From the sequence record PZ172995.1: DNA of 64,000 nucleotides; one strand, written 5' to 3'. The position numbers and the translations under genes are program-made. Shown piece by piece: positions 11,381 through 16,810 of this stretch; positions within the stretch are counted from its first letter, which is position 1, and every line of letters begins with the position of its first letter. The stretch is from a phage. Below the pieces are notes generated by a model that searched no databases, was not told the origin of the DNA, and saw nothing but the letters and a program-made list of their open reading frames with translations.

Positions 11381-11457
11381 CTCTGTTTAGCTCAGCTTGG
11401 TAGAGCGTTCCGTTTGGGGCGGTAAGGCCGGAGGTTCAAGTCCTCCAACAGAGACCA
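11381..11457 (+). tRNA. tRNA-Pro (TGG)
   Basis: Hand-folded cloverleaf: acceptor CTCTGTT/AACAGAG, anticodon loop TTTGGGG, T-arm GGAGG-TTCAAGT-CCTCC, CCA encoded. Confidence 0.75.
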
Positions 11458-11464
11458 AATTAAT

Positions 11465-11542
11465 GTTCCAGTAGACAAAACGGTAAAGTCACCACTCTTT
11501 CAAAGTGGATATTTGAGGGTTCAAATCCCTTCTGGAACGCCA
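11465..11542 (+). tRNA. tRNA-Glu (TTC)
   Basis: Acceptor GTTCCAG/CTGGAAC, anticodon stem CCACT/AGTGG with loop CTTTCAA, T-loop TTCAAAT, CCA encoded. Confidence 0.75.
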
Positions 11543-11547
11543 GTTTT

Positions 11548-11623
11548 GACAGAAGACCAATTACAGCAAACTTAATCTACTCATCTGACACGAAATCGGA
11601 CAAAGAAGATATTTGGTCTGGTC
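11548..11623 (+). ncRNA. conserved hairpin element, copy 1 (basal stem CAGAAGACC / GGTCTGG, loop with CAGCAA)
   Basis: GACAGAAGACCA pairs with TGGTCTGGTC around a loop of about 50 nt; same stem in three further copies. Confidence 0.5.
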
Positions 11624-11632
11624 ATTAAGAAT

Positions 11633-11709
11633 TGCGGGTATAGAGAAAGGGCGTCTCACATGTCTCATTAGCATGGTATCGGCAGGTTCGACTCCTGCAC
11701 CCGCCTCCA
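11633..11709 (+). tRNA. tRNA-Met (CAT), irregular acceptor stem
   Basis: D-stem GAGA/TCTC, anticodon stem CATGT/GCATG with loop CTCATTA, T-arm GCAGG-TTCGACT-CCTGC; acceptor pairing imperfect. Confidence 0.55.
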
Positions 11710-11714
11710 ATTTT

Positions 11715-11778
11715 GCAGAAGACCGTATGCAGCAACAAACTACTTTTTTTGCGGATAAAAGAAAAAACACGGTCTGGC
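11715..11778 (+). ncRNA. conserved hairpin element, copy 2
   Basis: GCAGAAGACCG ... CAGCAA ... CGGTCTGGC. Confidence 0.5.
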
Positions 11779-11788
11779 AATATATTAA

Positions 11789-11865
11789 GGTTAGGAAGCA
11801 CATAAGGTATGTGCGGTCGCCTGTTAAGCGAATGGCACAGGGTTCGAATCCCTGACTAACCGCCA
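11789..11865 (+). tRNA. tRNA-Asn (GTT)
   Basis: D-stem GCAC/GTGC, anticodon loop CTGTTAA, T-arm CAGGG-TTCGAAT-CCCTG, CCA encoded. Confidence 0.7.
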
Positions 11866-11874
11866 AATTTAAAT

Positions 11875-11962
11875 GTGTCGTTATCCCGTAGATGGTAGCG
11901 GTGGGGACTGTAAATCCCTTGTCATTGAGACTCGGTAGGTTCGACTCCTACACGGCACACCA
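11875..11962 (+). tRNA. tRNA-Tyr (GTA), long variable arm
   Basis: Acceptor GTGTCGT/ACGGCAC, anticodon loop CTGTAAA, long variable arm, T-arm GTAGG-TTCGACT-CCTAC, CCA encoded. Confidence 0.7.
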
Positions 11963-11968
11963 AATAAA

Positions 11969-12046
11969 GGTTATGTAGTTTAATCTGGTTAAAATACTCC
12001 CCTGTCACGGGAGATGATGAGGGTTCAAATCCCTTCGTAACCGCCA
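11969..12046 (+). tRNA. tRNA-Asp (GTC)
   Basis: Anticodon stem CTCCC/GGGAG with loop CTGTCAC, T-arm GAGGG-TTCAAAT-CCCTT, CCA encoded. Confidence 0.8.
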
Positions 12047-12129
12047 AATTATAATAAGTATTTCAAAATGATGTTTGAGAGGGCTATTTAGCCCCTCCCT
12101 TAAAGAGTTCTTACGAGTATTCTTTAAAG

Positions 12130-12212
12130 GAGCAGAAGACCAAATTCAGCAAGTACGTATGATATTTTCAAGCCAATTTAATTTTGAAAAAATTTAAAAC
12201 TTGGTCTGGCTC
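12130..12212 (+). ncRNA. conserved hairpin element, copy 3
   Basis: GAGCAGAAGACCAA pairs with TTGGTCTGGCTC; loop contains CAGCAA. Confidence 0.5.
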
Positions 12213-12221
12213 AACAAATTT

Positions 12222-12357
12222 ACAGAAGACCGTTTACAGCAAAACTTAAACAATCTATTTCTCCGGTAAAGAAAAGGCGAAGGTTCGATTCCTTCACTCG
12301 GCAGATGTCGAGTTGGTGTAATGGTAGCACTTAAGATGACAAACAACGGTCTGGTAA
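12222..12357 (+). ncRNA. conserved hairpin element, copy 4, enclosing a tRNA-like module (T-arm hairpin, acceptor-like hairpin, D-arm-like hairpin); candidate Y-RNA-like RNA
   Basis: Basal stem ACAGAAGACCGTT / AACGGTCTGGTA; inside: GAAGG-TTCGATT-CCTTC (12279-12295), ACTCGGC-AGAT-GTCGAGT (12296-12313), GTGT-AATGGTA-GCAC (12316-12330). Confidence 0.45.
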
Positions 12358-12503
12358 TTATCTTTGTAGGTGAGCTATTAAGCTTACTTGTGAGTATGCG
12401 ACCACAAAGGGTGAAAGGGCAAATTCTAGATTTAAACCCAACAAGGCACATCGCTACAGACCTTAAGCAAGTCTGGGTAGCTTATCTACAAAGATAATTT
12501 AAT

Positions 12504-12579
12504 GGAAGTGTAGCAGAATGGTGATGCGGCAGACTTTTAATCTGACAGGCGATGGGTTCGAATCCCTCCACTTCTACCA
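12504..12579 (+). tRNA. tRNA-Lys (TTT)
   Basis: Acceptor GGAAGTG/CACTTCT, anticodon loop CTTTTAA, T-loop TTCGAAT, CCA encoded; paralogous to the Lys(CTT) tRNA at 13820. Confidence 0.7.
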
Positions 12580-12583
12580 ATAT

Positions 12584-12660
12584 GGTTCAGTCGCAGATAA
12601 GGTAATGCAGGGGTCTCATAAGCCCTATGAATGTGGGTTCGATTCCCATCTGAACCTCCA
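12584..12660 (+). tRNA. tRNA with CAT anticodon (Met or lysidine-Ile)
   Basis: Acceptor GGTTCAG/CTGAACC, anticodon loop CTCATAA, T-arm GTGGG-TTCGATT-CCCAT, CCA encoded. Confidence 0.7.
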
Positions 12661-12661
12661 A

Positions 12662-12737
12662 GCTGGTATAGTTAAGAAGGTTATAACACTCCCCTGATAA
12701 GGGAATATCGGTGGTTCGATTCCACCTACCAGTACCA
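12662..12737 (+). tRNA. tRNA-Ile (GAT)
   Basis: D-stem GTTA/TAAC, anticodon loop CTGATAA, T-arm GGTGG-TTCGATT-CCACC, CCA encoded. Confidence 0.75.
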
Positions 12738-12752
12738 ATTTCAATAAAGTTG

Positions 12753-12781
12753 TTGACATTGATATGTGACTATTTTATAGT
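12753..12781 (+). promoter_or_regulatory. sigma70-like promoter (TTGACA, 17 nt, TATAGT) inside the tRNA array
   Basis: TTGACA 12753-12758, TATAGT 12776-12781; downstream about 300 nt has no tRNA or ORF. Confidence 0.55.
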
Positions 12782-12832
12782 AACTGAAAATGATTCAGCA
12801 TATGTATAATTCAAACACCAATACATGAGCGT

Positions 12833-12904
12833 TAGACGTAACACAATGTGGGGAAATTTGTTGTACATATTCTGAATAGTTTTCGTTGCGTAGCGTCTAT
12901 TTTG
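12833..12904 (+). terminator. putative structured element ending in a T-run (possible sRNA 3' end)
   Basis: TAGACG ... CGTCTA stem enclosing about 55 nt, followed by TTTTGC. Confidence 0.3.
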
Positions 12905-13074
12905 CAAATTTAAAATAAATGCAAACGACAATGTTTTTCTGGCAGTAGCTTGATAGGCTAAACACCAGTGAGGTCTTCCAATCCCTCATCAAAGAATTTG
13001 GCGTACTAGCCCACGGTATGATTAATAAGGTGGGCATCTTTAAGGGCTTTCTAAGAGAGTCTTTAAAGATTAAT

Positions 13075-13151
13075 GCACCCTTAGTTCAATTGGATAGAGC
13101 AACGGTCTTCTAAATCGTTAGTTACAGGTTCGAATCCTGTAGGGTGTGCCA
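13075..13151 (+). tRNA. tRNA-Arg (TCT)
   Basis: Acceptor GCACCCT/AGGGTGT, anticodon loop CTTCTAA, T-arm ACAGG-TTCGAAT-CCTGT, CCA encoded. Confidence 0.75.
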
Positions 13152-13293
13152 AATAGTTAGCAGATTGCTTAGACGACCTTATCGGGTCTCCGCGTAAGGA
13201 GGTGGTCTGTATCTCATGTTTTCCAGAACATGTAAATAATCTGAGAAGGGGCTTTACAGTGTTGCGAAAATACGGTAAGCTTCGAATTATAGT

Positions 13294-13376
13294 GTGGGAC
13301 GATGTTAAGACTCTAAGGCATGAGCAACGGCCTCCAAAACCGTTTCAAAGGGGTTCAACTCCTCCGTCCCATGCCA
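13294..13376 (+). tRNA. tRNA-Trp (CCA)-like, atypical length and D-region
   Basis: Acceptor GTGGGAC/GTCCCAT, anticodon loop CTCCAAA, T-loop TTCAACT, CCA encoded; about 7 nt longer than canonical. Confidence 0.45.
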
Positions 13377-13389
13377 AAGTCTTATTAGG

Positions 13390-13477
13390 GGTAGGTAGCG
13401 GCTAATGGCAGCCAAACAGTCTTGAAAACTGTTGCAACTGTAGAGATACGGTGAGGGTTCGACTCCTTTACTTACCA
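13390..13477 (+). tRNA. tRNA-Ser (TGA), long variable arm
   Basis: Acceptor GGTAGGT/ACTTACC, anticodon stem ACAGT/ACTGT with loop CTTGAAA, variable arm about 20 nt, T-loop TTCGACT. Confidence 0.7.
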
Positions 13478-13634
13478 CCTAATAAGATTTTACACCGTCC
13501 ATGCTTGCTCGCATTTTCGGTTTATCCCTCGTGTATTGTCGTACACACTGATAAAGCACCTAGTAGGTGTCACGGAGAAGAGATAATATCAAGCTCTCCA
13601 AAGGTTCTAGTCACCGGATTAAACAAGACTATGC

Positions 13635-13656
13635 AAAGACCAATTTAGGTCTTTTT
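13635..13656 (+). terminator. putative Rho-independent terminator
   Basis: AAAGACC-AATTTA-GGTCTTT followed by TTT. Confidence 0.45.
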
Positions 13657-13735
13657 AGAGGGCTTCTAAGGTTATTACAGCTTGTTGTGGAACCTTGTTG
13701 CTTAGGTTCTTAGAAGTTCTCTAAAAAGATTTAAT

Positions 13736-13812
13736 GCACCTATAGCCCAACTGGTAGAGGCAGCAGACTTAGAATCTGCTCAGTGTGAGTTCGAATCTCT
13801 CTAGGTGTACCA
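13736..13812 (+). tRNA. tRNA with TAG anticodon (Leu by anticodon), short variable arm
   Basis: Acceptor GCACCTA/TAGGTGT, anticodon stem GCAGA/TCTGC with loop CTTAGAA, T-loop TTCGAAT, A73, CCA encoded. Confidence 0.65.
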
Positions 13813-13819
13813 AATTAAT

Positions 13820-13895
13820 GCAGGTGTAGCAAAATGGTTATGCGGCTGACTCTTAATCAGTAAGACGATGGGTTCAATTCCCTCCACCTGTACCA
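13820..13895 (+). tRNA. tRNA-Lys (CTT)
   Basis: Acceptor GCAGGTG/CACCTGT, anticodon loop CTCTTAA, T-loop TTCAATT, CCA encoded. Confidence 0.7.
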
Positions 13896-13901
13896 AACAT
13901 T

Positions 13902-13977
13902 GGGGTCATAGTTTATATGGTTAAAATTCGAGTTTTGCAAACTTGGGAACTGAGTTCAATTCTCAGTGACTCCACCA
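13902..13977 (+). tRNA. tRNA-Ala (TGC)
   Basis: Acceptor GGGGTCA/TGACTCC, anticodon loop TTTGCAA, T-arm CTGAG-TTCAATT-CTCAG, CCA encoded. Confidence 0.7.
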
Positions 13978-13983
13978 ATTAGT

Positions 13984-14058
13984 GCATCCATAGTTTAAAC
14001 GGGAAAATTACAGTCTTCCAAACTGAGGTTGAGGGTTCGATTCCCTCTGGATGCTCCA
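13984..14058 (+). tRNA. tRNA-Gly (TCC)
   Basis: Acceptor GCATCCA/TGGATGC, anticodon loop CTTCCAA, T-loop TTCGATT, CCA encoded. Confidence 0.75.
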
Positions 14059-14065
14059 AATTAAT

Positions 14066-14141
14066 GCTCCTATCGTATAATTGGCTATTACGGTTGCCTT
14101 GTAAGTAACTTATCAGGGTTCGAATCCTTGTGGGAGCACCA
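14066..14141 (+). tRNA. tRNA-Thr (TGT)
   Basis: Acceptor GCTCCTA/TGGGAGC, anticodon loop CTTGTAA, T-arm CAGGG-TTCGAAT-CCTTG, CCA encoded. Confidence 0.7.
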
Positions 14142-14238
14142 ATTTAGAGGTCAAGTGAAAGACCGCTTTGAGTCAACTGAAGACCGTAACAAATCCCACG
14201 GAGTTGAGTTAGCGGCACAACTTCAGACCTCTTTCCAC

Positions 14239-14313
14239 ACTCGCTTAGTTTATATGGTAAAACATCACCCTTACAAGATGAAGAAAAAGGTTCAAGTCCT
14301 TTAGTGAGTACCA
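14239..14313 (+). tRNA. tRNA-Val (TAC)
   Basis: D-stem GTTT/AAAC, anticodon loop CTTACAA, T-arm AAAGG-TTCAAGT-CCTTT, CCA encoded. Confidence 0.7.
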
Positions 14314-14314
14314 T

Positions 14315-14392
14315 GTTCCAGTATCCCAATTGGCAGAGGATGCAAGCTCAAACCTTGCACTAGTGACGGTTCGAATCCGTCTTGGAACACCA
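14315..14392 (+). tRNA. tRNA with CAA anticodon (Leu by anticodon), short variable arm
   Basis: Acceptor GTTCCAG/TTGGAAC, anticodon stem GCAAG/CTTGC with loop CTCAAAC, T-arm GACGG-TTCGAAT-CCGTC, A73, CCA encoded. Confidence 0.65.
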
Positions 14393-14397
14393 ATTTT

Positions 14398-14473
14398 GCA
14401 GGATTAGTTCAAATGGATAGAGCAACAGTCTACGAAGCTGTTAATAGGGGTTCGAGTCCCTTATCCTGCGCCA
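14398..14473 (+). tRNA. tRNA-Arg (ACG)
   Basis: Acceptor GCAGGAT/ATCCTGC, anticodon loop CTACGAA, T-loop TTCGAGT, CCA encoded. Confidence 0.75.
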
Positions 14474-14491
14474 GATAAGTAAGAGTGATTT

Positions 14492-14734
14492 ATGCAAACA
14501 TTAATCGTCGTTGAACATGAAAATTCCAATAGCATTGAGTTTGTAAGGGTTCCCACTATAGATACCCACATTTTCTTGAAAGTAGGCTGGGAATGTGACC
14601 CAATAAGAGTAGAAAAATTTATTGGTCATTACTTTGGTGGAAGACAACTTAAAAGTGTTAATTTTGAGACAATGTTACCAGAAAACTCAGAAACAAATAA
14701 TAATGTTTACCTCCTTACAAGGATTAGACAATGA
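14492..14734 (+). CDS. hypothetical protein encoded inside the tRNA array
   Basis: ORF with RBS; ATGA overlap with the next gene. Confidence 0.5.
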   Translation: MQTLIVVEHENSNSIEFVRVPTIDTHIFLKVGWECDPIRVEKFIGHYFGGRQLKSVNFETMLPENSETNNNVYLLTRIRQ

Positions 14735-15288
14735 GATATTTGAAGTATGTTTCATGGATTTTCTTAGCTTTGCTAGAGCCATTTGCAGCAATCTTAGCAG
14801 TCATCTTAGCACCTTTTGTAGTTCTATTCTACAGTGAGAAGAGAGGACACTTACCTTTCGGCTTCAGATGGATGGAAACATATGATAACCCAATTGATGG
14901 TGATAAAGGTCATGTCGAACGATGGGCTAAGATTAGAAAGATTGGTAAGCTTGGTATCTATATGCAGAGAGTTGGTTGGCTCTGGAGAAACAAAGCTTAT
15001 AACTTCTCTTACCATGTGTTAGGAAGAGATGTAAAAGATGTTACTAAGTGGAAAGGTAATATCAATGTAAGTTCTAACCCTGAAGATAATCAGACAGGTT
15101 ATCTCCTAATGTGGAACAGTAATGCTTGGGGATTATTCGCTTTTATCCCATCAATTAAACTCTTTGGTAAGCAATTCTACTGGAGAATTTATGTTGGATG
15201 GAAACTTAAAAGTGTTGTTCCAAAAGAAAGAGCATTCTCAAGGGAAAGAGTTATGTTGGCATTCTTTATTCATCCACTGAGAAAGTAA
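14731..15288 (+). CDS. hypothetical Trp-rich membrane protein encoded inside the tRNA array
   Basis: N-terminal hydrophobic helix WIFLALLEPFAAILAVILAPFVVLF in the 185-aa translation. Confidence 0.6.
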   Translation: MRYLKYVSWIFLALLEPFAAILAVILAPFVVLFYSEKRGHLPFGFRWMETYDNPIDGDKGHVERWAKIRKIGKLGIYMQRVGWLWRNKAYNFSYHVLGRDVKDVTKWKGNINVSSNPEDNQTGYLLMWNSNAWGLFAFIPSIKLFGKQFYWRIYVGWKLKSVVPKERAFSRERVMLAFFIHPLRK

Positions 15289-15296
15289 AGATTTAA

Positions 15297-15372
15297 AGGG
15301 GATTAGTTTACAAGGTTAAAACCTCGGTCTTTGAAATCGAAGAAGTTGGTTCAATTCCAACATCCCCCGCCA
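15297..15372 (+). tRNA. tRNA-Gln (TTG)
   Basis: Anticodon stem TCGGT/ATCGA with loop CTTTGAA, T-arm GTTGG-TTCAATT-CCAAC, CCA encoded. Confidence 0.7.
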
Positions 15373-15374
15373 AT

Positions 15375-15453
15375 GCTCCATTACTCCAATTGGCAGAGAG
15401 GCCAGACTTAAAATCTGTGTTATGTATCGGTTCGAATCCGATATGGAGTACCA
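15375..15453 (+). tRNA. tRNA with TAA anticodon (Leu by anticodon), short variable arm
   Basis: Acceptor GCTCCAT/ATGGAGT, anticodon loop CTTAAAA, T-arm ATCGG-TTCGAAT-CCGAT, A73, CCA encoded. Confidence 0.65.
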
Positions 15454-15458
15454 AATTT

Positions 15459-15534
15459 AGCGGTATAGCATAACTGGCAATGCAGCAGTCTCTGAAGCTG
15501 TCTTATTAAGGTTCAAATCCTTATGCCGCTGCCA
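15459..15534 (+). tRNA. tRNA-Gln (CTG)
   Basis: D-stem GCAT/ATGC, anticodon loop CTCTGAA, T-arm TAAGG-TTCAAAT-CCTTA, CCA encoded. Confidence 0.7.
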
Positions 15535-15565
15535 CTTCTAAGGATTCTTACGAGAGTCCTTAAAT

Positions 15566-15641
15566 GTGGCCTTATCATAAATGGTAATGACCCATGCTGT
15601 GAACATGGTCTATACGGGTTCAAATCCCGTAGGTCACCCCA
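15566..15641 (+). tRNA. tRNA-His (GTG)
   Basis: D-stem TCAT/ATGA, anticodon stem CCATG/CATGG with loop CTGTGAA, T-arm ACGGG-TTCAAAT-CCCGT, CCA encoded. Confidence 0.75.
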
Positions 15642-15646
15642 ATTTA

Positions 15647-15723
15647 TAGTCCAAGTAGCTTATATGGTTAAAGCGCGTGTCTGAAAAACATGAGAAGAGG
15701 GTTCAAATCCCACTGGACTACCA
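15647..15723 (+). tRNA. tRNA-Phe (GAA)
   Basis: Acceptor TAGTCCA/TGGACTA, anticodon stem CGTGT/ACATG with loop CTGAAAA, T-loop TTCAAAT; linker lengths slightly irregular. Confidence 0.65.
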
Positions 15724-15739
15724 ATTTCAAAGGTGCTTA

Positions 15740-16474
15740 ATGAAAGAGATGACAGGACAAGGTAAGGAGATTTTTAATCTCTTAAAAACCGGTAGAGGGT
15801 TTTCTAATCCCCTTATTACTGGTGCAGCAGTTCTCGGTGGAACCGTAGCTGCCTCTACATCACTTGTAAGCTCTATTAGCTCTGTAACAGACCCTACAAT
15901 AAAGGATAAACTTGTTGCCGCTGGACTTACAACAGTTCTGCTTAACAGCTTTACAACGAGTCTGACAAGCACTACATCCACCACTAAGACATTGACAGAT
16001 TACGGTCAAAAATCAATTGATGAGTTTTCATCACGTATGCAGGTAGCAAAAGGATATTCCAATGTTATGGGTGCAGCAGGAGAGCAAGTTGGTTGTACAC
16101 CATTTAGTGGTATTATGGGTGTTGCTACAGAATATGGTCAAAAAGCTATTGACACGATTAACAACACGTTAGACAGTGTTAACGGCGTGTTAAGTGACTT
16201 ACAGGATGCTATTGATAAAGGTCTTGATACTGTTTCTGATTTAGCTAACCAAGCTGTTAGCAAGATTAATGAAGGTATCTCGAAGATTACAGCTTATGCA
16301 GATGAAGTTGTGCAGATGATTGAAGAAGAAGCTGCCCTTATTGCAGAGTACCTTAAAACGAATATCAATGGGTTCTTAGCAGGTATTTTACCAGACTGGT
16401 TTGATGATGCTTGTAAAACTGGTGTGATTGACACTATTGCAACACCAGAAATGAAGAACGCATTACAGAAATAA
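15740..16474 (+). CDS. hypothetical Ser/Thr-rich protein encoded inside the tRNA array
   Basis: Track start 15677 lies inside tRNA-Phe; ATG at 15740 has AAAGGTG RBS; low-complexity S/T region then a helical C-terminal half. Confidence 0.6.
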   Translation: MKEMTGQGKEIFNLLKTGRGFSNPLITGAAVLGGTVAASTSLVSSISSVTDPTIKDKLVAAGLTTVLLNSFTTSLTSTTSTTKTLTDYGQKSIDEFSSRMQVAKGYSNVMGAAGEQVGCTPFSGIMGVATEYGQKAIDTINNTLDSVNGVLSDLQDAIDKGLDTVSDLANQAVSKINEGISKITAYADEVVQMIEEEAALIAEYLKTNINGFLAGILPDWFDDACKTGVIDTIATPEMKNALQK

Positions 16475-16475
16475 T

Positions 16476-16568
16476 GGAAGATTAACCCTAAAAGGTAAGG
16501 GAGCAGTTTGCTAAACTGCCAGTAGCTGAGAAATCGGTGTACCAGTTCAAGTCTGGTATCTTCCCCCA
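16476..16568 (+). tRNA. tRNA-Ser (GCT), long variable arm
   Basis: Acceptor GGAAGAT/ATCTTCC, anticodon stem GCAGT/ACTGC with loop TTGCTAA, variable arm about 21 nt, T-arm ACCAG-TTCAAGT-CTGGT, CCA encoded. Confidence 0.75.
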
Positions 16569-16572
16569 ATTT

Positions 16573-16648
16573 GAATCCGTGACAGAAATGGCTATGTGCC
16601 TGTCTGCAAAACAGGTTTATAAGGGTTCGAGTCCCTTCGGATTCTCCA
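16573..16648 (+). tRNA. tRNA-Cys (GCA)
   Basis: Acceptor GAATCCG/CGGATTC, anticodon stem CCTGT/ACAGG with loop CTGCAAA, T-arm AAGGG-TTCGAGT-CCCTT, CCA encoded. Confidence 0.8.
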
Positions 16649-16685
16649 AGTTATTTTACTCTCTCTCAATTAAAATAATAATAAT

Positions 16686-16746
16686 GCCCTGCTATAAGTA
16701 TTCTTCCTTTCGCTACCGAAGAGTATTTTTAGACAGGGCTTTTTTA
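16686..16746 (+). terminator. putative terminator (long imperfect hairpin plus T-run) after the tRNA array
   Basis: GCCCTG ... CAGGGC followed by TTTTTT. Confidence 0.45.
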
Positions 16747-16810
16747 CAGAGTTATACTTTATAAGAAGGCTTATACAGTATGTCTCTGACGTACATTGTG
16801 GTTTCTCCTT

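What the first reader, a model, noticed from the sequence alone, without database searches (positions are those of the whole stretch)
12753..12904. Promoter plus terminator-like structure with no ORF or tRNA: candidate small RNA
A near-consensus promoter (TTGACA, 17 nt, TATAGT at 12753-12781) is followed by about 120 nt ending in a stem (TAGACG ... CGTCTA) and T-run near 12900, inside a 340-nt tRNA-free gap (12738-13074). A second gap (13478-13735) has hairpins and a terminator-like AAAGACC-AATTTA-GGTCTTT-TT at 13635-13656. These gaps may encode stable small RNAs analogous to those known in the tRNA regions of other large phages.
Basis: inference. Interest (0 to 1): 0.4.

Follow-up and report, generated by a model that had tools for sequence, protein, structure and literature searches.

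The report
Phage tmRNA-like RNA targeting host tmRNA
The tRNA-free gap holds an unannotated, widely shared phage RNA gene that copies the message half of the bacterial ribosome-rescue RNA (tmRNA), lacks its tRNA half, and starts with a stretch antisense to the host's own tmRNA, so it probably hijacks or blocks ribosome rescue during infection.

Summary
The window is a FelixO1-like phage. The promoter at 12753-12781 is real and conserved, and the gap 12738-13074 has no tRNA. The conserved unit runs from about 12788 to 13074. It has a tmRNA-like resume context (AUAAAU), a 10-codon tag frame (GCA..., ANDNVFLAVA, stop in a hairpin loop) and two pseudoknots. Covariation across 90 distinct copies supports the structure. 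All 93 distinct copies examined keep exactly 10 codons, using all three stop codons. Copies occur in Ounavirinae, Ackermannviridae, N4-like, Chaseviridae and lambdoid phages, phage-plasmids, and 411 of 5426 E. coli genomes, never annotated. ARAGORN and Rfam do not call it, and no tRNA-like domain is present. The 5' arm is antisense to host tmRNA nt ~68-106, not to the phage's own tag. Two divergent families carry an arm matching a different natural tmRNA allele. Best reading: an anti-tmRNA arm plus a surrogate tag template that docks on host tmRNA. This is inferred, not shown. The second gap is lineage-restricted; its "terminator" belongs to a long pre-tRNA leader hairpin.

The parts
12753..12781 (+). 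Sigma-70-type promoter TTGACA-17 nt-TATAGT; predicted start near 12787-12789
   Evidence: 11/12, best in region. Conserved in all Felixounavirus variants, including those with a different upstream tRNA-Ile allele. Equivalent promoters sit 6-12 nt upstream of Box 1 in 25 of 81 distinct contexts.
12786..12884 (+). Long imperfect 5' hairpin. 12786-12875 is a 90-nt indel present in the window, L001 and L120 but absent from most Felixounaviruses.
   Evidence: Alignment; fold; Rfam alignment. A homologous hairpin precedes the element in Chaseviridae phages JL1 and PYps3T. Its base pairs 12786-12791 with 12879-12884 and so partly covers Box 1.
12877..12886 (+). Box 1, UAGUUUUCGU: exact reverse complement of host tmRNA nt 97-106 (ACGAAAACUA, codons 3-6 of the host tag)
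   Evidence: At least 8 nt of perfect complement in 74 of 77 distinct arms.
12893..12903 (+). Box 2, GCGUCUAUUUU: complementary, with one mismatch, to host tmRNA nt 81-91 (AAAAUAGUCGC). This covers A86 and the first bases of the host resume codon.
12915..12920 (+). AUAAAU upstream context of the resume codon, with U at -5 and A at -4 as in E. coli tmRNA U85/A86
   Evidence: Invariant in alignment A2, though part of the scan pattern. The role of A86 is taken from PMC2481249.
12921..12953 (+). Tag-like reading frame GCA AAC GAC AAU GUU UUU CUG GCA GUA GCU UGA = ANDNVFLAVA*, with no in-frame start codon
   Evidence: Exactly 10 codons in 93/93 distinct copies; stop TAA 82, TGA 8, TAG 3; other frames vary. 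Tags listed.
12939..12968 (+). Hairpin equivalent to tmRNA helix 5, with the stop codon in its loop
   Evidence: Covariation (helices 1 and 2). R1 aligns it to E. coli tmRNA helix 5.
12969..13001 (+). Pseudoknot a: stem 1 is 12969-73/12984-88; stem 2 is 12978-81/12998-13001
   Evidence: helices 3 and 4: 99.3% and 93.9% of cells paired, with three pairs in each changing on both sides.
13004..13035 (+). Pseudoknot b: stem 1 is 13004-07/13015-18; stem 2 is 13009-14/13030-35; conserved loop UGAUUAAUAA at 13019-28
   Evidence: helix 5; more than 12 different complementary stem-2 sequence pairs.
13037..13071 (+). Perfect hairpin directly 5' of tRNA-Arg; likely 3' boundary or processing element of the RNA
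   Evidence: Fold. Variable among relatives. A similar leader precedes tRNA-Leu.
13075..13151 (+). tRNA-Arg(UCU), the downstream neighbour; RNase P cleavage at its 5' end would define the RNA's 3' end (inferred)
13646..13733 (+). Not part of the tmRNA-like RNA.

Best explanation
Window ~12788-13074 (+) encodes a promoter-driven structured RNA of about 290 nt (about 200 nt in relatives that lack the 5' hairpin). It is derived from the message half of tmRNA. It keeps the resume context, a 10-codon degradation-tag-like frame ending in a stop inside a helix-5-like hairpin, and two downstream pseudoknots. It has no tRNA-like domain. Its 5' arm (Box 1 at 12877-86, Box 2 at 12893-903) is antisense to the single-stranded part of the host tmRNA, from the A-rich stretch and A86 through the resume codon to codon 6.

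Proposed mechanism (inferred). The arm hybridises to host tmRNA and masks the host's frame-setting nucleotides and tag codons. Because the duplex is antiparallel, the phage's own resume codon ends up close to host pseudoknot 1. The host tRNA-like domain with SmpB then either delivers ribosomes onto the phage-encoded tag (a two-piece tmRNA assembled from host and phage RNAs, a 'tag swap') or is simply blocked.

Shown: the sequence family, its structure, the frame conservation and the complementarity. Inferred: expression, pairing in vivo and translation of the phage tag.
For: Family and structure.
- The core matches unrelated phages: lambdoid HK633, Ackermannviridae, N4-like, Roufvirus and Chaseviridae; 615 phage records in all.
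- 411 of 5426 complete E. coli genomes carry it, including SSU5-like phage-plasmids.
- On alignment A2, 94.9% of cells pair, against 33-44% when partners are slid. 197 cells change on both sides, against 20 or fewer when slid.
- Pseudoknot b stem 2 has more than 12 complementary variants.
- The window RNA folds at -86.2 kcal/mol, z = -5.8.

tmRNA relationship.
- Rfam tmRNA-family models hit the tag region below threshold in every copy tested.
- Model R1, built from the phage copies, finds genuine tmRNAs of nine bacterial loci at the matching place (E. coli nt 72-201; 17-22 bits; E = 5e-4 on L125 alone).
- The frame is 10 codons in 93/93 copies, with all three stop codons used at the same position. 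Tags follow AN[DE][DEN]x[FYV]L[AM][VA]A.
- U(-5) and A(-4) are kept; A86 is the key frame determinant.

Antisense arm.
- A 10-nt exact complement to host tmRNA nt 97-106.
- Every family's arm aligns to the reverse complement of E. coli tmRNA at nt 57/68/81-106, with 0-8 of 1000 dinucleotide shuffles scoring as high.
- Arm vs host scores 32.8 on average, arm vs own tag region 14.3; host is higher in 77 of 77.
- Predicted duplexes are -26 to -41 kcal/mol at tmRNA nt 56-107.
- The downstream half shows no such signal, which serves as an internal control.
- The target is almost invariant across Enterobacterales.
- Box 1 lies within a few nt of the predicted 5' end in independent contexts: primary promoters and, in L376, directly after a tRNA 3' end.

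Allele matching.
- Two divergent families are confirmed members by R1 (33-56 bits). They carry Box 1 = UAUUGUUCGU, the double variant complementary to the GACGAACAAUA (ANDEQY) tmRNA allele seen in Photorhabdus temperata.
- Their arms score better on that allele (37/26) than on E. coli's (27/17-19). Felix and lambdoid arms do the reverse.

Precedent. Antisense oligonucleotides specific for a given tmRNA variant abolish that variant's tagging in vitro (PMC7038980).
Against: - There are no expression, interaction or tagging data.
- No precedent exists for a ribosome resuming on a template held to tmRNA only by an intermolecular duplex.
- In this window Box 1 is partly sequestered by the inserted 5' hairpin.
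- The Felix-type arm is the weakest: 1-3 of 1000 shuffles by alignment and 5 of 300 by energy. The cp21 arm gives 15 of 300 by energy.
- Copies in a Yersinia phage and an Aeromonas phage carry E. coli-type boxes, not boxes tuned to the Yersinia similis or Aeromonadaceae alleles I recovered, although wobble pairs would tolerate these.
- The hosts of the EQY-type families are unknown, and those families were found by a directed pattern search.
- A predicted host sequence exactly matching the P2 Box 2 was not found in metagenomes.
- The arm could partly reflect origin by inverted duplication of a tmRNA fragment.
- The 120 IMG/VR copies were collected with a pattern that fixes codons 1-3 and 7, so conservation there is by construction.
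Confidence: 0.55

Rival explanations
1. Pure anti-tmRNA inhibitor or decoy. The arm blocks the host tmRNA message region, or the tmRNA-like body titrates S1, SmpB or RNase R. The tag frame is never translated and is kept only as part of a stable scaffold inherited from tmRNA.
For: The arm complementarity is the same as for the main explanation. Antisense to the tag region suffices to inhibit tagging in vitro. A TLD-only RNA in mycobacteriophage DS6A has been proposed to titrate SmpB.
Against: A plain inhibitor would not need an exact 10-codon frame in 93/93 copies, use of all three stop codons at one position, retention of U-5/A-4, or a tag with a hydrophobic, Ala-rich C-terminus.
Confidence: 0.2
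2. Autonomous split tmRNA. The RNA is the coding piece of a phage-encoded two-piece tmRNA. Its acceptor piece would be another phage RNA: the tRNA-like scaffold found downstream in lambdoid and Ackermannviridae copies, a neighbouring tRNA, or the permuted-looking tRNA at 12250-12345.
For: The element is associated with tRNA clusters in most genomes. A tRNA-like scaffold with compensatory changes lies 190-450 nt downstream in about a third of copies. Two-piece tmRNAs exist in nature (my own knowledge).
Against: ARAGORN, which detects permuted tmRNAs, calls nothing in 125 copies. The scaffold is absent from the window and from the N4-like and phage-plasmid copies. It has G3-C70, not G3:U70, and no conserved CCA. 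No complementarity tethering it to the coding piece was seen. This model does not explain the host-directed arm.
Confidence: 0.1
3. One reading: an independent sRNA of about 120 nt (12788-12905) ended by an intrinsic terminator.
For: The promoter is real, and 12786-12884 folds into a stable hairpin.
Against: No terminator is called. The proposed stem has a 55-nt loop and is not in the minimum-energy fold. 90 nt of the segment are missing in most relatives, which keep the promoter and everything downstream.
Confidence: 0.03
4. Non-functional relic: a captured and rearranged fragment of a bacterial ssrA gene drifting in phage genomes.
For: The arm plus body look like an inverted and a direct copy of tmRNA nt ~57-200.
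Against: The element persists across at least six unrelated phage groups. It shows compensatory changes in five helices, frame and stop conservation, and boxes kept while the linkers between them vary.
Confidence: 0.05
5. A conventional small ORF, for example ATG at 12919 giving MQTTMFFWQ*, or a minus-strand ORF (12770-12931, 12897-13037) as annotated in some relatives.
For: Some GenBank records annotate hypothetical proteins here. The ORFs are listed.
Against: The ATG frame varies from 4 to 12 codons among copies (frame +1). There is no Shine-Dalgarno sequence. Covariation is of the RNA type. The minus-strand ORFs cross the 90-nt indel.
Confidence: 0.02

Closest known systems
Bacterial one-piece tmRNA (SsrA; Rfam RF00023)
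   Same: Resume codon GCA preceded by U(-5) A(-4). A 10-codon AND...-type tag ending in hydrophobic/Ala residues. The stop codon sits in the loop of a helix-5-like hairpin, followed by H-type pseudoknots. Models detect each other in both directions.
   Different: No tRNA-like domain (no acceptor stem, T-arm or CCA). No helix 2. Two rather than three downstream pseudoknots. Pseudoknot 1 is replaced by a host-directed antisense arm. Scores fall below the Rfam gathering thresholds and ARAGORN is negative.
Two-piece (circularly permuted) tmRNA of alpha-proteobacteria, cyanobacteria and others (RF01849, RF04321)
   Same: The concept of a coding piece that is physically separate from the acceptor piece and held to it by base pairing. 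Weak hits to these models (22-29 bits).
   Different: In known cases both pieces come from one permuted gene and pair through the acceptor stem and helix 2. Here no acceptor piece is encoded nearby, and the complementarity is to the message region of the host's tmRNA.
Phage-encoded tmRNAs (mycobacteriophage Bxz1 group, Bacillus phage G) and the TLD-only RNA of mycobacteriophage DS6A
   Same: Phage genes that act on trans-translation. The DS6A RNA is also a partial tmRNA proposed to interfere with the host system (PMC4131195).
   Different: Those are complete tmRNAs, or the opposite half (the tRNA-like domain only). None was reported in enterobacterial phages in that survey. None has an antisense arm.
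Prophage-encoded anti-sRNAs of enterohaemorrhagic E. coli (AgvB, AsxR)
   Same: Phage-encoded RNAs that act by base pairing with a host non-coding RNA. They are often located in lambdoid late regions. This rests on my own knowledge and was not tested here.
   Different: Those are short Hfq-dependent sponges for regulatory sRNAs. This RNA targets tmRNA and carries a surrogate template.
Synthetic antisense oligonucleotides against the tmRNA tag region
   Same: They target the same accessible region and are specific for a given tmRNA variant. They inhibit tagging by more than 95% in vitro (PMC7038980).
   Different: They are artificial and have no attached replacement template.

Membership tests
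tmRNA (SsrA) | tRNA-like domain: 5'/3' ends forming an acceptor stem with G3:U70, a T-arm and a 3' CCA | tested here: not met
   ARAGORN calls no tmRNA in the window or in 125 copies with flanks of -600/+900 nt. Rfam matches cover only model positions 56-294 of 374. No such motif was found in the gap by reading.
tmRNA (SsrA) | Score at or above the curated Rfam gathering threshold | tested here: not met
   RF00023 scores 15.2 bits against a threshold of 47. RF04321 scores 22-29 against 47. RF01849 scores 19 against 50.
tmRNA (SsrA) | Alanine resume codon with conserved upstream U85/A86-type context | tested here: met
   AUAAAU|GCA in all copies of A2 (part of the scan pattern). Also present in the BLAST-found copies JL1, PYps3T and pIS4-A. 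The phage-plasmid copy has UACAAGU|GCA instead.
tmRNA (SsrA) | Short tag frame ending in hydrophobic/Ala residues and a stop codon in the helix-5 loop | tested here: met
   for the frame and stop. for helix 5.
tmRNA (SsrA) | Pseudoknots flanking the message region | tested here: inconclusive
   Two downstream H-type pseudoknots are supported by covariation. A pseudoknot-1 equivalent upstream was not established.
Two-piece permuted tmRNA | Acceptor piece encoded upstream of the coding piece in the same gene | tested here: not met
   ARAGORN is negative. In short Felixounavirus and pIS4-A-type copies only a promoter lies upstream of Box 1.
Trans-acting antisense RNA against a host RNA | Extended complementarity to the target, more than chance, conserved across homologues | tested here: met
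   Negative control. Allele-matched variants.
Trans-acting antisense RNA against a host RNA | Demonstrated expression and physical interaction with the target | not testable with these tools
   No transcriptome or interactome data could be accessed. Literature searches found nothing.

The most novel reading that the evidence does not exclude
An inter-genomic two-piece tmRNA. The phage RNA docks by its 5' arm on the host tmRNA message region. The host tRNA-like domain and SmpB rescue stalled ribosomes as usual, but translation resumes on the phage-encoded frame. Rescued proteins then receive a phage-specified tag (e.g. AANDNVFLAVA) instead of AANDENYALAA. This would reprogram proteolytic quality control during infection, and in the roughly 8% of E. 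coli genomes that carry the element in prophages or phage-plasmids.
Probability: 0.35. Interest if true: 0.95.

Novelty: new variant of a known kind. Interest (0 to 1): 0.87.

Why it matters
Trans-translation is the main ribosome-rescue pathway of bacteria and an antibiotic target. Some phages are known to depend on it. Known phage interventions are complete tmRNA genes or, in one case, a tRNA-like half.

A message-half-only RNA with a built-in anchor to the host tmRNA would be a new way for a virus to take over a host ribonucleoprotein. It occurs in at least six unrelated groups of enterobacterial phages and in hundreds of E. coli genomes, yet no annotation pipeline reports it. It would be the first natural antisense regulator of tmRNA.

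If the tag is used, it would also show that the template of trans-translation can be supplied in trans. That is of interest for mechanism and for engineering, for example programmable tagging of stalled-ribosome products. It also explains one of the long 'empty' gaps in phage tRNA arrays. Finally, it provides a covariance model (R1) with which such genes can be annotated.

Tried and rejected
- **Terminator reading of TAGACG...CGTCTA and of AAAGACC...GGTCTTT.** Rejected.
- **A hidden tRNA-like domain.** I checked ARAGORN on all copies, low-threshold Rfam scans on the window and on L002-L004, reading of the flanks, and a motif search in the window. Nothing was found.
- **The T-arm-like GGUUCAACUCC upstream of the SP058 copy.** No complementary acceptor strand; dropped.
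- **A second contact between the conserved loop UGAUUAA plus ACUAGCC and host tmRNA nt 236-249.** Seen as 7-mers, but the downstream half shows no consistent or significant complementarity across families. Rejected as chance.
- **Unrestricted RNAduplex on 80-nt upstream regions.** It gave messy long-loop duplexes and poor statistics for the Felix type (one search timed out). I replaced it with local alignment and short-arm duplexes.
- **Host-covariation tests with the Yersinia phage PYps3T and the Aeromonas phage pIS4-A.** Inconclusive.
- **Directed scans for arms matching other tmRNA alleles.** The EQY pattern found two real families. The Xenorhabdus-type pattern found only a one-base variant of a known copy (L042). 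The Y. similis-type pattern found none. The first, looser pattern returned only chance hits.
- **Metagenome scan for a tmRNA exactly matching the P2 Box 2.** No hits.
- **Host assignment of the EQY-type contigs by DNA or vRNAP similarity.** Failed.
- **T5-like origin of 'phage selz'.** It is a deletion mutant of an Ackermannviridae phage.
- **Literature searches for prior description.** Nothing found, including searches with the tag peptide strings. Subscription journals are not covered.
Full report
**Context.** The window is a Felixounavirus (FelixO1-like myovirus), 95-97% identical over 12000-16800 to Escherichia phages vB_EfeM_pEP20 and vB_EcoM_E9. It contains an array of 26 plus-strand tRNA genes at 11381-16648. 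The finding concerns the 337-nt tRNA-free gap between tRNA-Ile (12662-12737) and tRNA-Arg(UCU) (13075-13151), and a second gap at 13480-13735.

**Checking the observation.**
- The promoter TTGACA-17-TATAGT at 12753-12781 is the best match (11/12) in 8-18 kb.
- It is conserved immediately after tRNA-Ile in every Felixounavirus-type copy aligned, including copies with a different tRNA-Ile allele.
- The 'terminator' does not hold up. TAGACG (12833-38) and CGTCTA (12894-99) are 55 nt apart, no terminator-like site is called, and they are unpaired in the predicted fold.
- The alignment of relatives shows that 12786-12875 is a precise 90-nt indel. It is present in the window and two other copies and absent in most, which read TATAGTAACC|TTAGTTTTCG.
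- With its flank, the insert forms a long imperfect hairpin at 12786-12884.

**What is conserved.**
- A sensitive BLAST of the gap against 50,697 phage records gave 615 hits. Positions 12912-13036 match at 70-81% identity in unrelated phages: lambdoid HK633, Ackermannviridae (cp21, SenALZ1, IME250), N4-like phages (FSL SP-058, St11Ph5), Sf11 and Aeromonas phage pIS4-A. Nothing is annotated there in almost all of them.
- The 5' hairpin matches Chaseviridae phages.
- In HK633 the element lies about 290 nt downstream of PR', between Q and the holin gene. In other phages it lies next to tRNA genes.
- In complete E. coli genomes, 411 of 5426 carry it: 215 chromosomal and 208 plasmid places, never annotated. 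A plasmid example is an SSU5-like phage-plasmid with the element upstream of a tRNA cluster.

**tmRNA-like anatomy.** Aligning four copies showed an invariant AUAAAUGCAAACGA. From GCA there is a frame of exactly ten codons followed by a stop:
- ANDNVFLAVA in the window
- ANEEMYLAVA in HK633
- ANDNTFLAVA in cp21
- ANDDVVLMAA in SP058

For comparison, the E. coli tmRNA tag is ANDENYALAA.

All 125 copies have ten codons. Among 93 distinct core sequences, including copies found by BLAST rather than by the pattern, the frame is always ten codons. The eleventh triplet is TAA (82), TGA (8) or TAG (3). The other two frames vary in length. There is no in-frame start codon.

The stop lies in the loop of a hairpin (12939-12968) like tmRNA helix 5. 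Two H-type pseudoknots follow (12969-13001 and 13004-13035).

On alignment A2 (90 distinct sequences):
- 94.9% of cells form pairs, against 33-44% when partners are slid.
- 197 cells change on both sides, against 20 or fewer when slid.
- No shuffle out of 500 reaches the observed covariation score.

The second stem of pseudoknot b has more than a dozen different complementary sequence pairs. U(-5) and A(-4) before the resume codon correspond to U85/A86 of E. coli tmRNA. A86 is the main frame determinant (PMC2481249).

**Relationship to tmRNA, and what is missing.**
- Rfam tmRNA-family models hit the tag region of every copy tested, always below threshold (11-29 bits).
- In the other direction, covariance model R1 built from A2 finds the window once (135.5 bits, 12903-13051).
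- R1 also finds divergent copies in Chaseviridae (66-69 bits, tag ANDSEMRVAA) and the phage-plasmid (77 bits).
- R1 finds genuine tmRNAs of nine bacterial loci at the equivalent position (E. coli nt 72-201; 17-22 bits; E = 5e-4 on the ssrA locus alone).
- The element therefore looks homologous to the message half of tmRNA.
- It has no tRNA-like half. ARAGORN calls no tmRNA in the window or in any of 125 copies with generous flanks. Nothing resembling an alanine acceptor stem, T-arm or CCA is present in the gap.
- The N4-like copy ends at an intrinsic terminator about 110 nt after the second pseudoknot, and the phage-plasmid copy ends in a strong hairpin. The minimal unit lacks any acceptor piece, so it fails the defining test for tmRNA membership.

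**The antisense arm.**
- Comparing the window RNA with E. coli ssrA (L125 294-656), the best match was on the opposite strand. UAGUUUUCGU (12877-12886, 'Box 1') is the exact reverse complement of tmRNA nt 97-106, which are codons 3-6 of the host tag.
That covers the A-rich stretch, A86 and the start of the resume codon.
- In 13 representative arms spanning the main groups sampled at that point, the 70 nt upstream of the phage resume codon align to the reverse complement of tmRNA at the same place (nt 57/68/81-106), with 0-8 of 1000 dinucleotide shuffles scoring as high.
- In the long forms the complementarity extends into the 3' strand of pseudoknot 1.
- Across 77 distinct arms the mean score is 32.8 against the host and 14.3 against the phage's own tag region. 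The host score is higher in all 77. Box 1 has at least 8 perfect bases in 74 of 77.
- Predicted arm:tmRNA duplexes are -26 (Felix type) to -41 kcal/mol at nt 56-107. No shuffle out of 300 matches them in four of six families; 5 of 300 do for the Felix type and 15 of 300 for cp21.
- The downstream half of the element shows no consistent complementarity to tmRNA. This serves as an internal negative control and disposes of a second contact I had suspected.
- The target region is almost invariant across Enterobacterales, which fits the conservation of the boxes while the linkers between them vary.
- Box 1 sits at or within a few nucleotides of the predicted 5' end in independent contexts:
  - 7 nt after the -10 hexamer in short Felixounaviruses.
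  - 12 nt after a TTGACA-17-TAGATT promoter in a family of about 47-kb phages that includes pIS4-A.
  - 6 nt in L098, and close behind a weaker promoter-like site I read by eye in the phage-plasmid copy.
  - Three nt after a tRNA 3' end in contig L376.

**Allele matching.**
- I scanned IMG/VR for arms complementary to other natural tmRNA alleles recovered from smpB-linked loci.
- The pattern for the GACGAACAAUAC allele (tag ANDEQY..., seen in Photorhabdus temperata) recovered two very divergent families. P1 is in contigs of a distant N4-like phage, with tag ANDDSFEVARLAA. P2 is in jumbo-phage contigs of about 250 kb, with tag ANDDLFVVAA.
- Both are significant R1 hits (33-56 bits).
- Their Box 1, UAUUGUUCGU, differs from the E. 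coli type at exactly the two positions that pair with the two differences between the alleles.
- In a cross-comparison, Felix and lambdoid arms score best on E. coli tmRNA (30.5/41.5, against 20.5/32 on the EQY allele). P1 and P2 arms score best on the EQY allele (37/26, against 27/17-19).
- Caveats: the search was directed, and I could not identify the hosts of these contigs. Copies in a Yersinia and an Aeromonas phage are not tuned to the alleles I recovered for those groups, although wobble pairs would tolerate them.

**Mechanism.**
- Shown: a conserved, structured, promoter-preceded RNA gene that keeps every feature needed to be read as a tmRNA template, lacks the tRNA half, and begins with an arm complementary to the accessible message region of host tmRNA.
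- Inferred: the arm hybridises to host tmRNA. That would mask A86 and the host tag codons.
- Supporting precedent: antisense oligonucleotides specific for a given tmRNA variant abolish tagging by that variant in vitro (PMC7038980), and pairing around A86 has been proposed to block the ligand that sets the frame there.
- Geometry: because the duplex is antiparallel, the phage RNA leaves it next to host pseudoknot 1. Its own resume codon lies 21-36 nt further on, roughly where the host's would be.
- The economical reading is a hybrid, two-piece tmRNA in which the host supplies the tRNA-like domain and SmpB, and the phage supplies the template. I put this 'tag swap' at about 0.35.
- A pure inhibitor or decoy is at about 0.2. 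It does not explain the frame and stop-codon conservation.
- Together, action through pairing with host tmRNA is at about 0.55.

**In this window.** The 90-nt hairpin lies between the promoter and Box 1, and its base pairs with part of Box 1. A homologous hairpin occupies the same position in Chaseviridae copies. It is therefore an alternative 5' module (stabiliser or regulator) rather than random insertion. Its effect on arm accessibility is unknown.

**Second gap (13480-13735).** It is conserved only in Ounavirinae (254 records, 82-100% identity). It has no Rfam match beyond a spurious miRNA hit. It folds modestly better than shuffles (z = -2.9). That hairpin resembles in sequence and position the hairpin before tRNA-Arg (13037-13071). 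I found no evidence for or against a separate sRNA in 13480-13640.

**Novelty.** Searches of the open literature returned nothing describing such an element. They covered tmRNA with phage terms, 'tmRNA-like', the tag peptide strings, antisense with message-domain terms, and anti-sRNA. The 2014 tmRNA census found phage ssrA only in mycobacteriophages and Bacillus phage G, plus a TLD-only RNA in DS6A. Subscription-only papers are not covered. I class it as a new variant of a known kind (a tmRNA-derived RNA). If the trans-assembled hybrid is real, the mechanism itself would be new.

Noticed in passing
window 12250-12345: A tRNA 3' half (T-arm GAAGGUUCGAUUCCUUC, acceptor strand ACUCGGC-A) is followed after 3 nt by a tRNA 5' half (GUCGAGU-UG-GUGUAAUGGUAGCAC...). 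The two acceptor strands are mutually complementary. This is either a circularly permuted tRNA-like gene or two truncated tandem copies. Rfam gives a partial tRNA hit (22 bits).
   Followed up: partly
window 13296-13370: A tRNA-like sequence with a CCA (Trp) anticodon loop that ARAGORN misses in the window but calls as tRNA-Trp in relatives L061 and L109. Only a weak tRNA-Sec hit (23 bits) in Rfam. Possibly an atypical or decaying tRNA-Trp.
   Followed up: partly
window 11547-11625, 11715-11780, 12132-12212, 12222-12357: A repeated spacer cassette, (G/A)CAGAAGACC...CAGCAA...GGTCTGG, lies between tRNA genes. The ends (AGACC/GGTCT) can pair. Possibly processing hairpins or remnants of a mobile spacer.
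   Followed up: no
window 13037-13071 and 13646-13733: Long, near-perfect hairpins with shared sequence (GGGCTT(T)CTAAG ... AAAGATT(T)AAT) lie immediately 5' of tRNA-Arg and tRNA-Leu. They look like pre-tRNA leader or processing elements.
   Followed up: partly
L019, L061, L026, L015, L120 (Felixounavirus relatives), position equivalent to window 13075-13151: In place of the canonical tRNA-Arg(UCU), these relatives carry a tRNA-like sequence with a UCU anticodon loop, no D-arm and a long variable arm. ARAGORN does not call it.
   Followed up: no
L002 2708-2815, L003 ~2690-2800 and about 37 other loci, 190-450 nt downstream of the resume codon: A tRNA-like scaffold: UGUGGUG-AAU-GCGCAGGCUGAUGCGC-[20-100 nt hypervariable insert]-GCCGGAGAUCAGCACCGGC-CACCACA. 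All three stems show compensatory changes. It has G3-C70 and no conserved CCA, no Rfam hit, and is absent from the window. Function unknown.
   Followed up: partly
L003 4117-4330 (Klebsiella phage cp21): A match above threshold to the Salmonella sRNA family STnc100 (RF02076, 50.7 bits against a threshold of 47) inside an Ackermannviridae phage genome.
   Followed up: no
L002/HK633 and other long forms, -127/-59 and +124/+207 relative to the resume context: Repeated hairpin arms GGUAAGAGCAU ... UGCUCUUUCC flank both the tmRNA-like unit and the tRNA-like scaffold. This suggests cassettes separated by a common processing hairpin.
   Followed up: partly
L004 (Salmonella phage FSL SP-058): The tRNA coordinates in the GenBank feature table, as shown in locus coordinates, are offset by about 1.1 kb from where ARAGORN and Rfam find the tRNAs in the same locus.
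   Followed up: no
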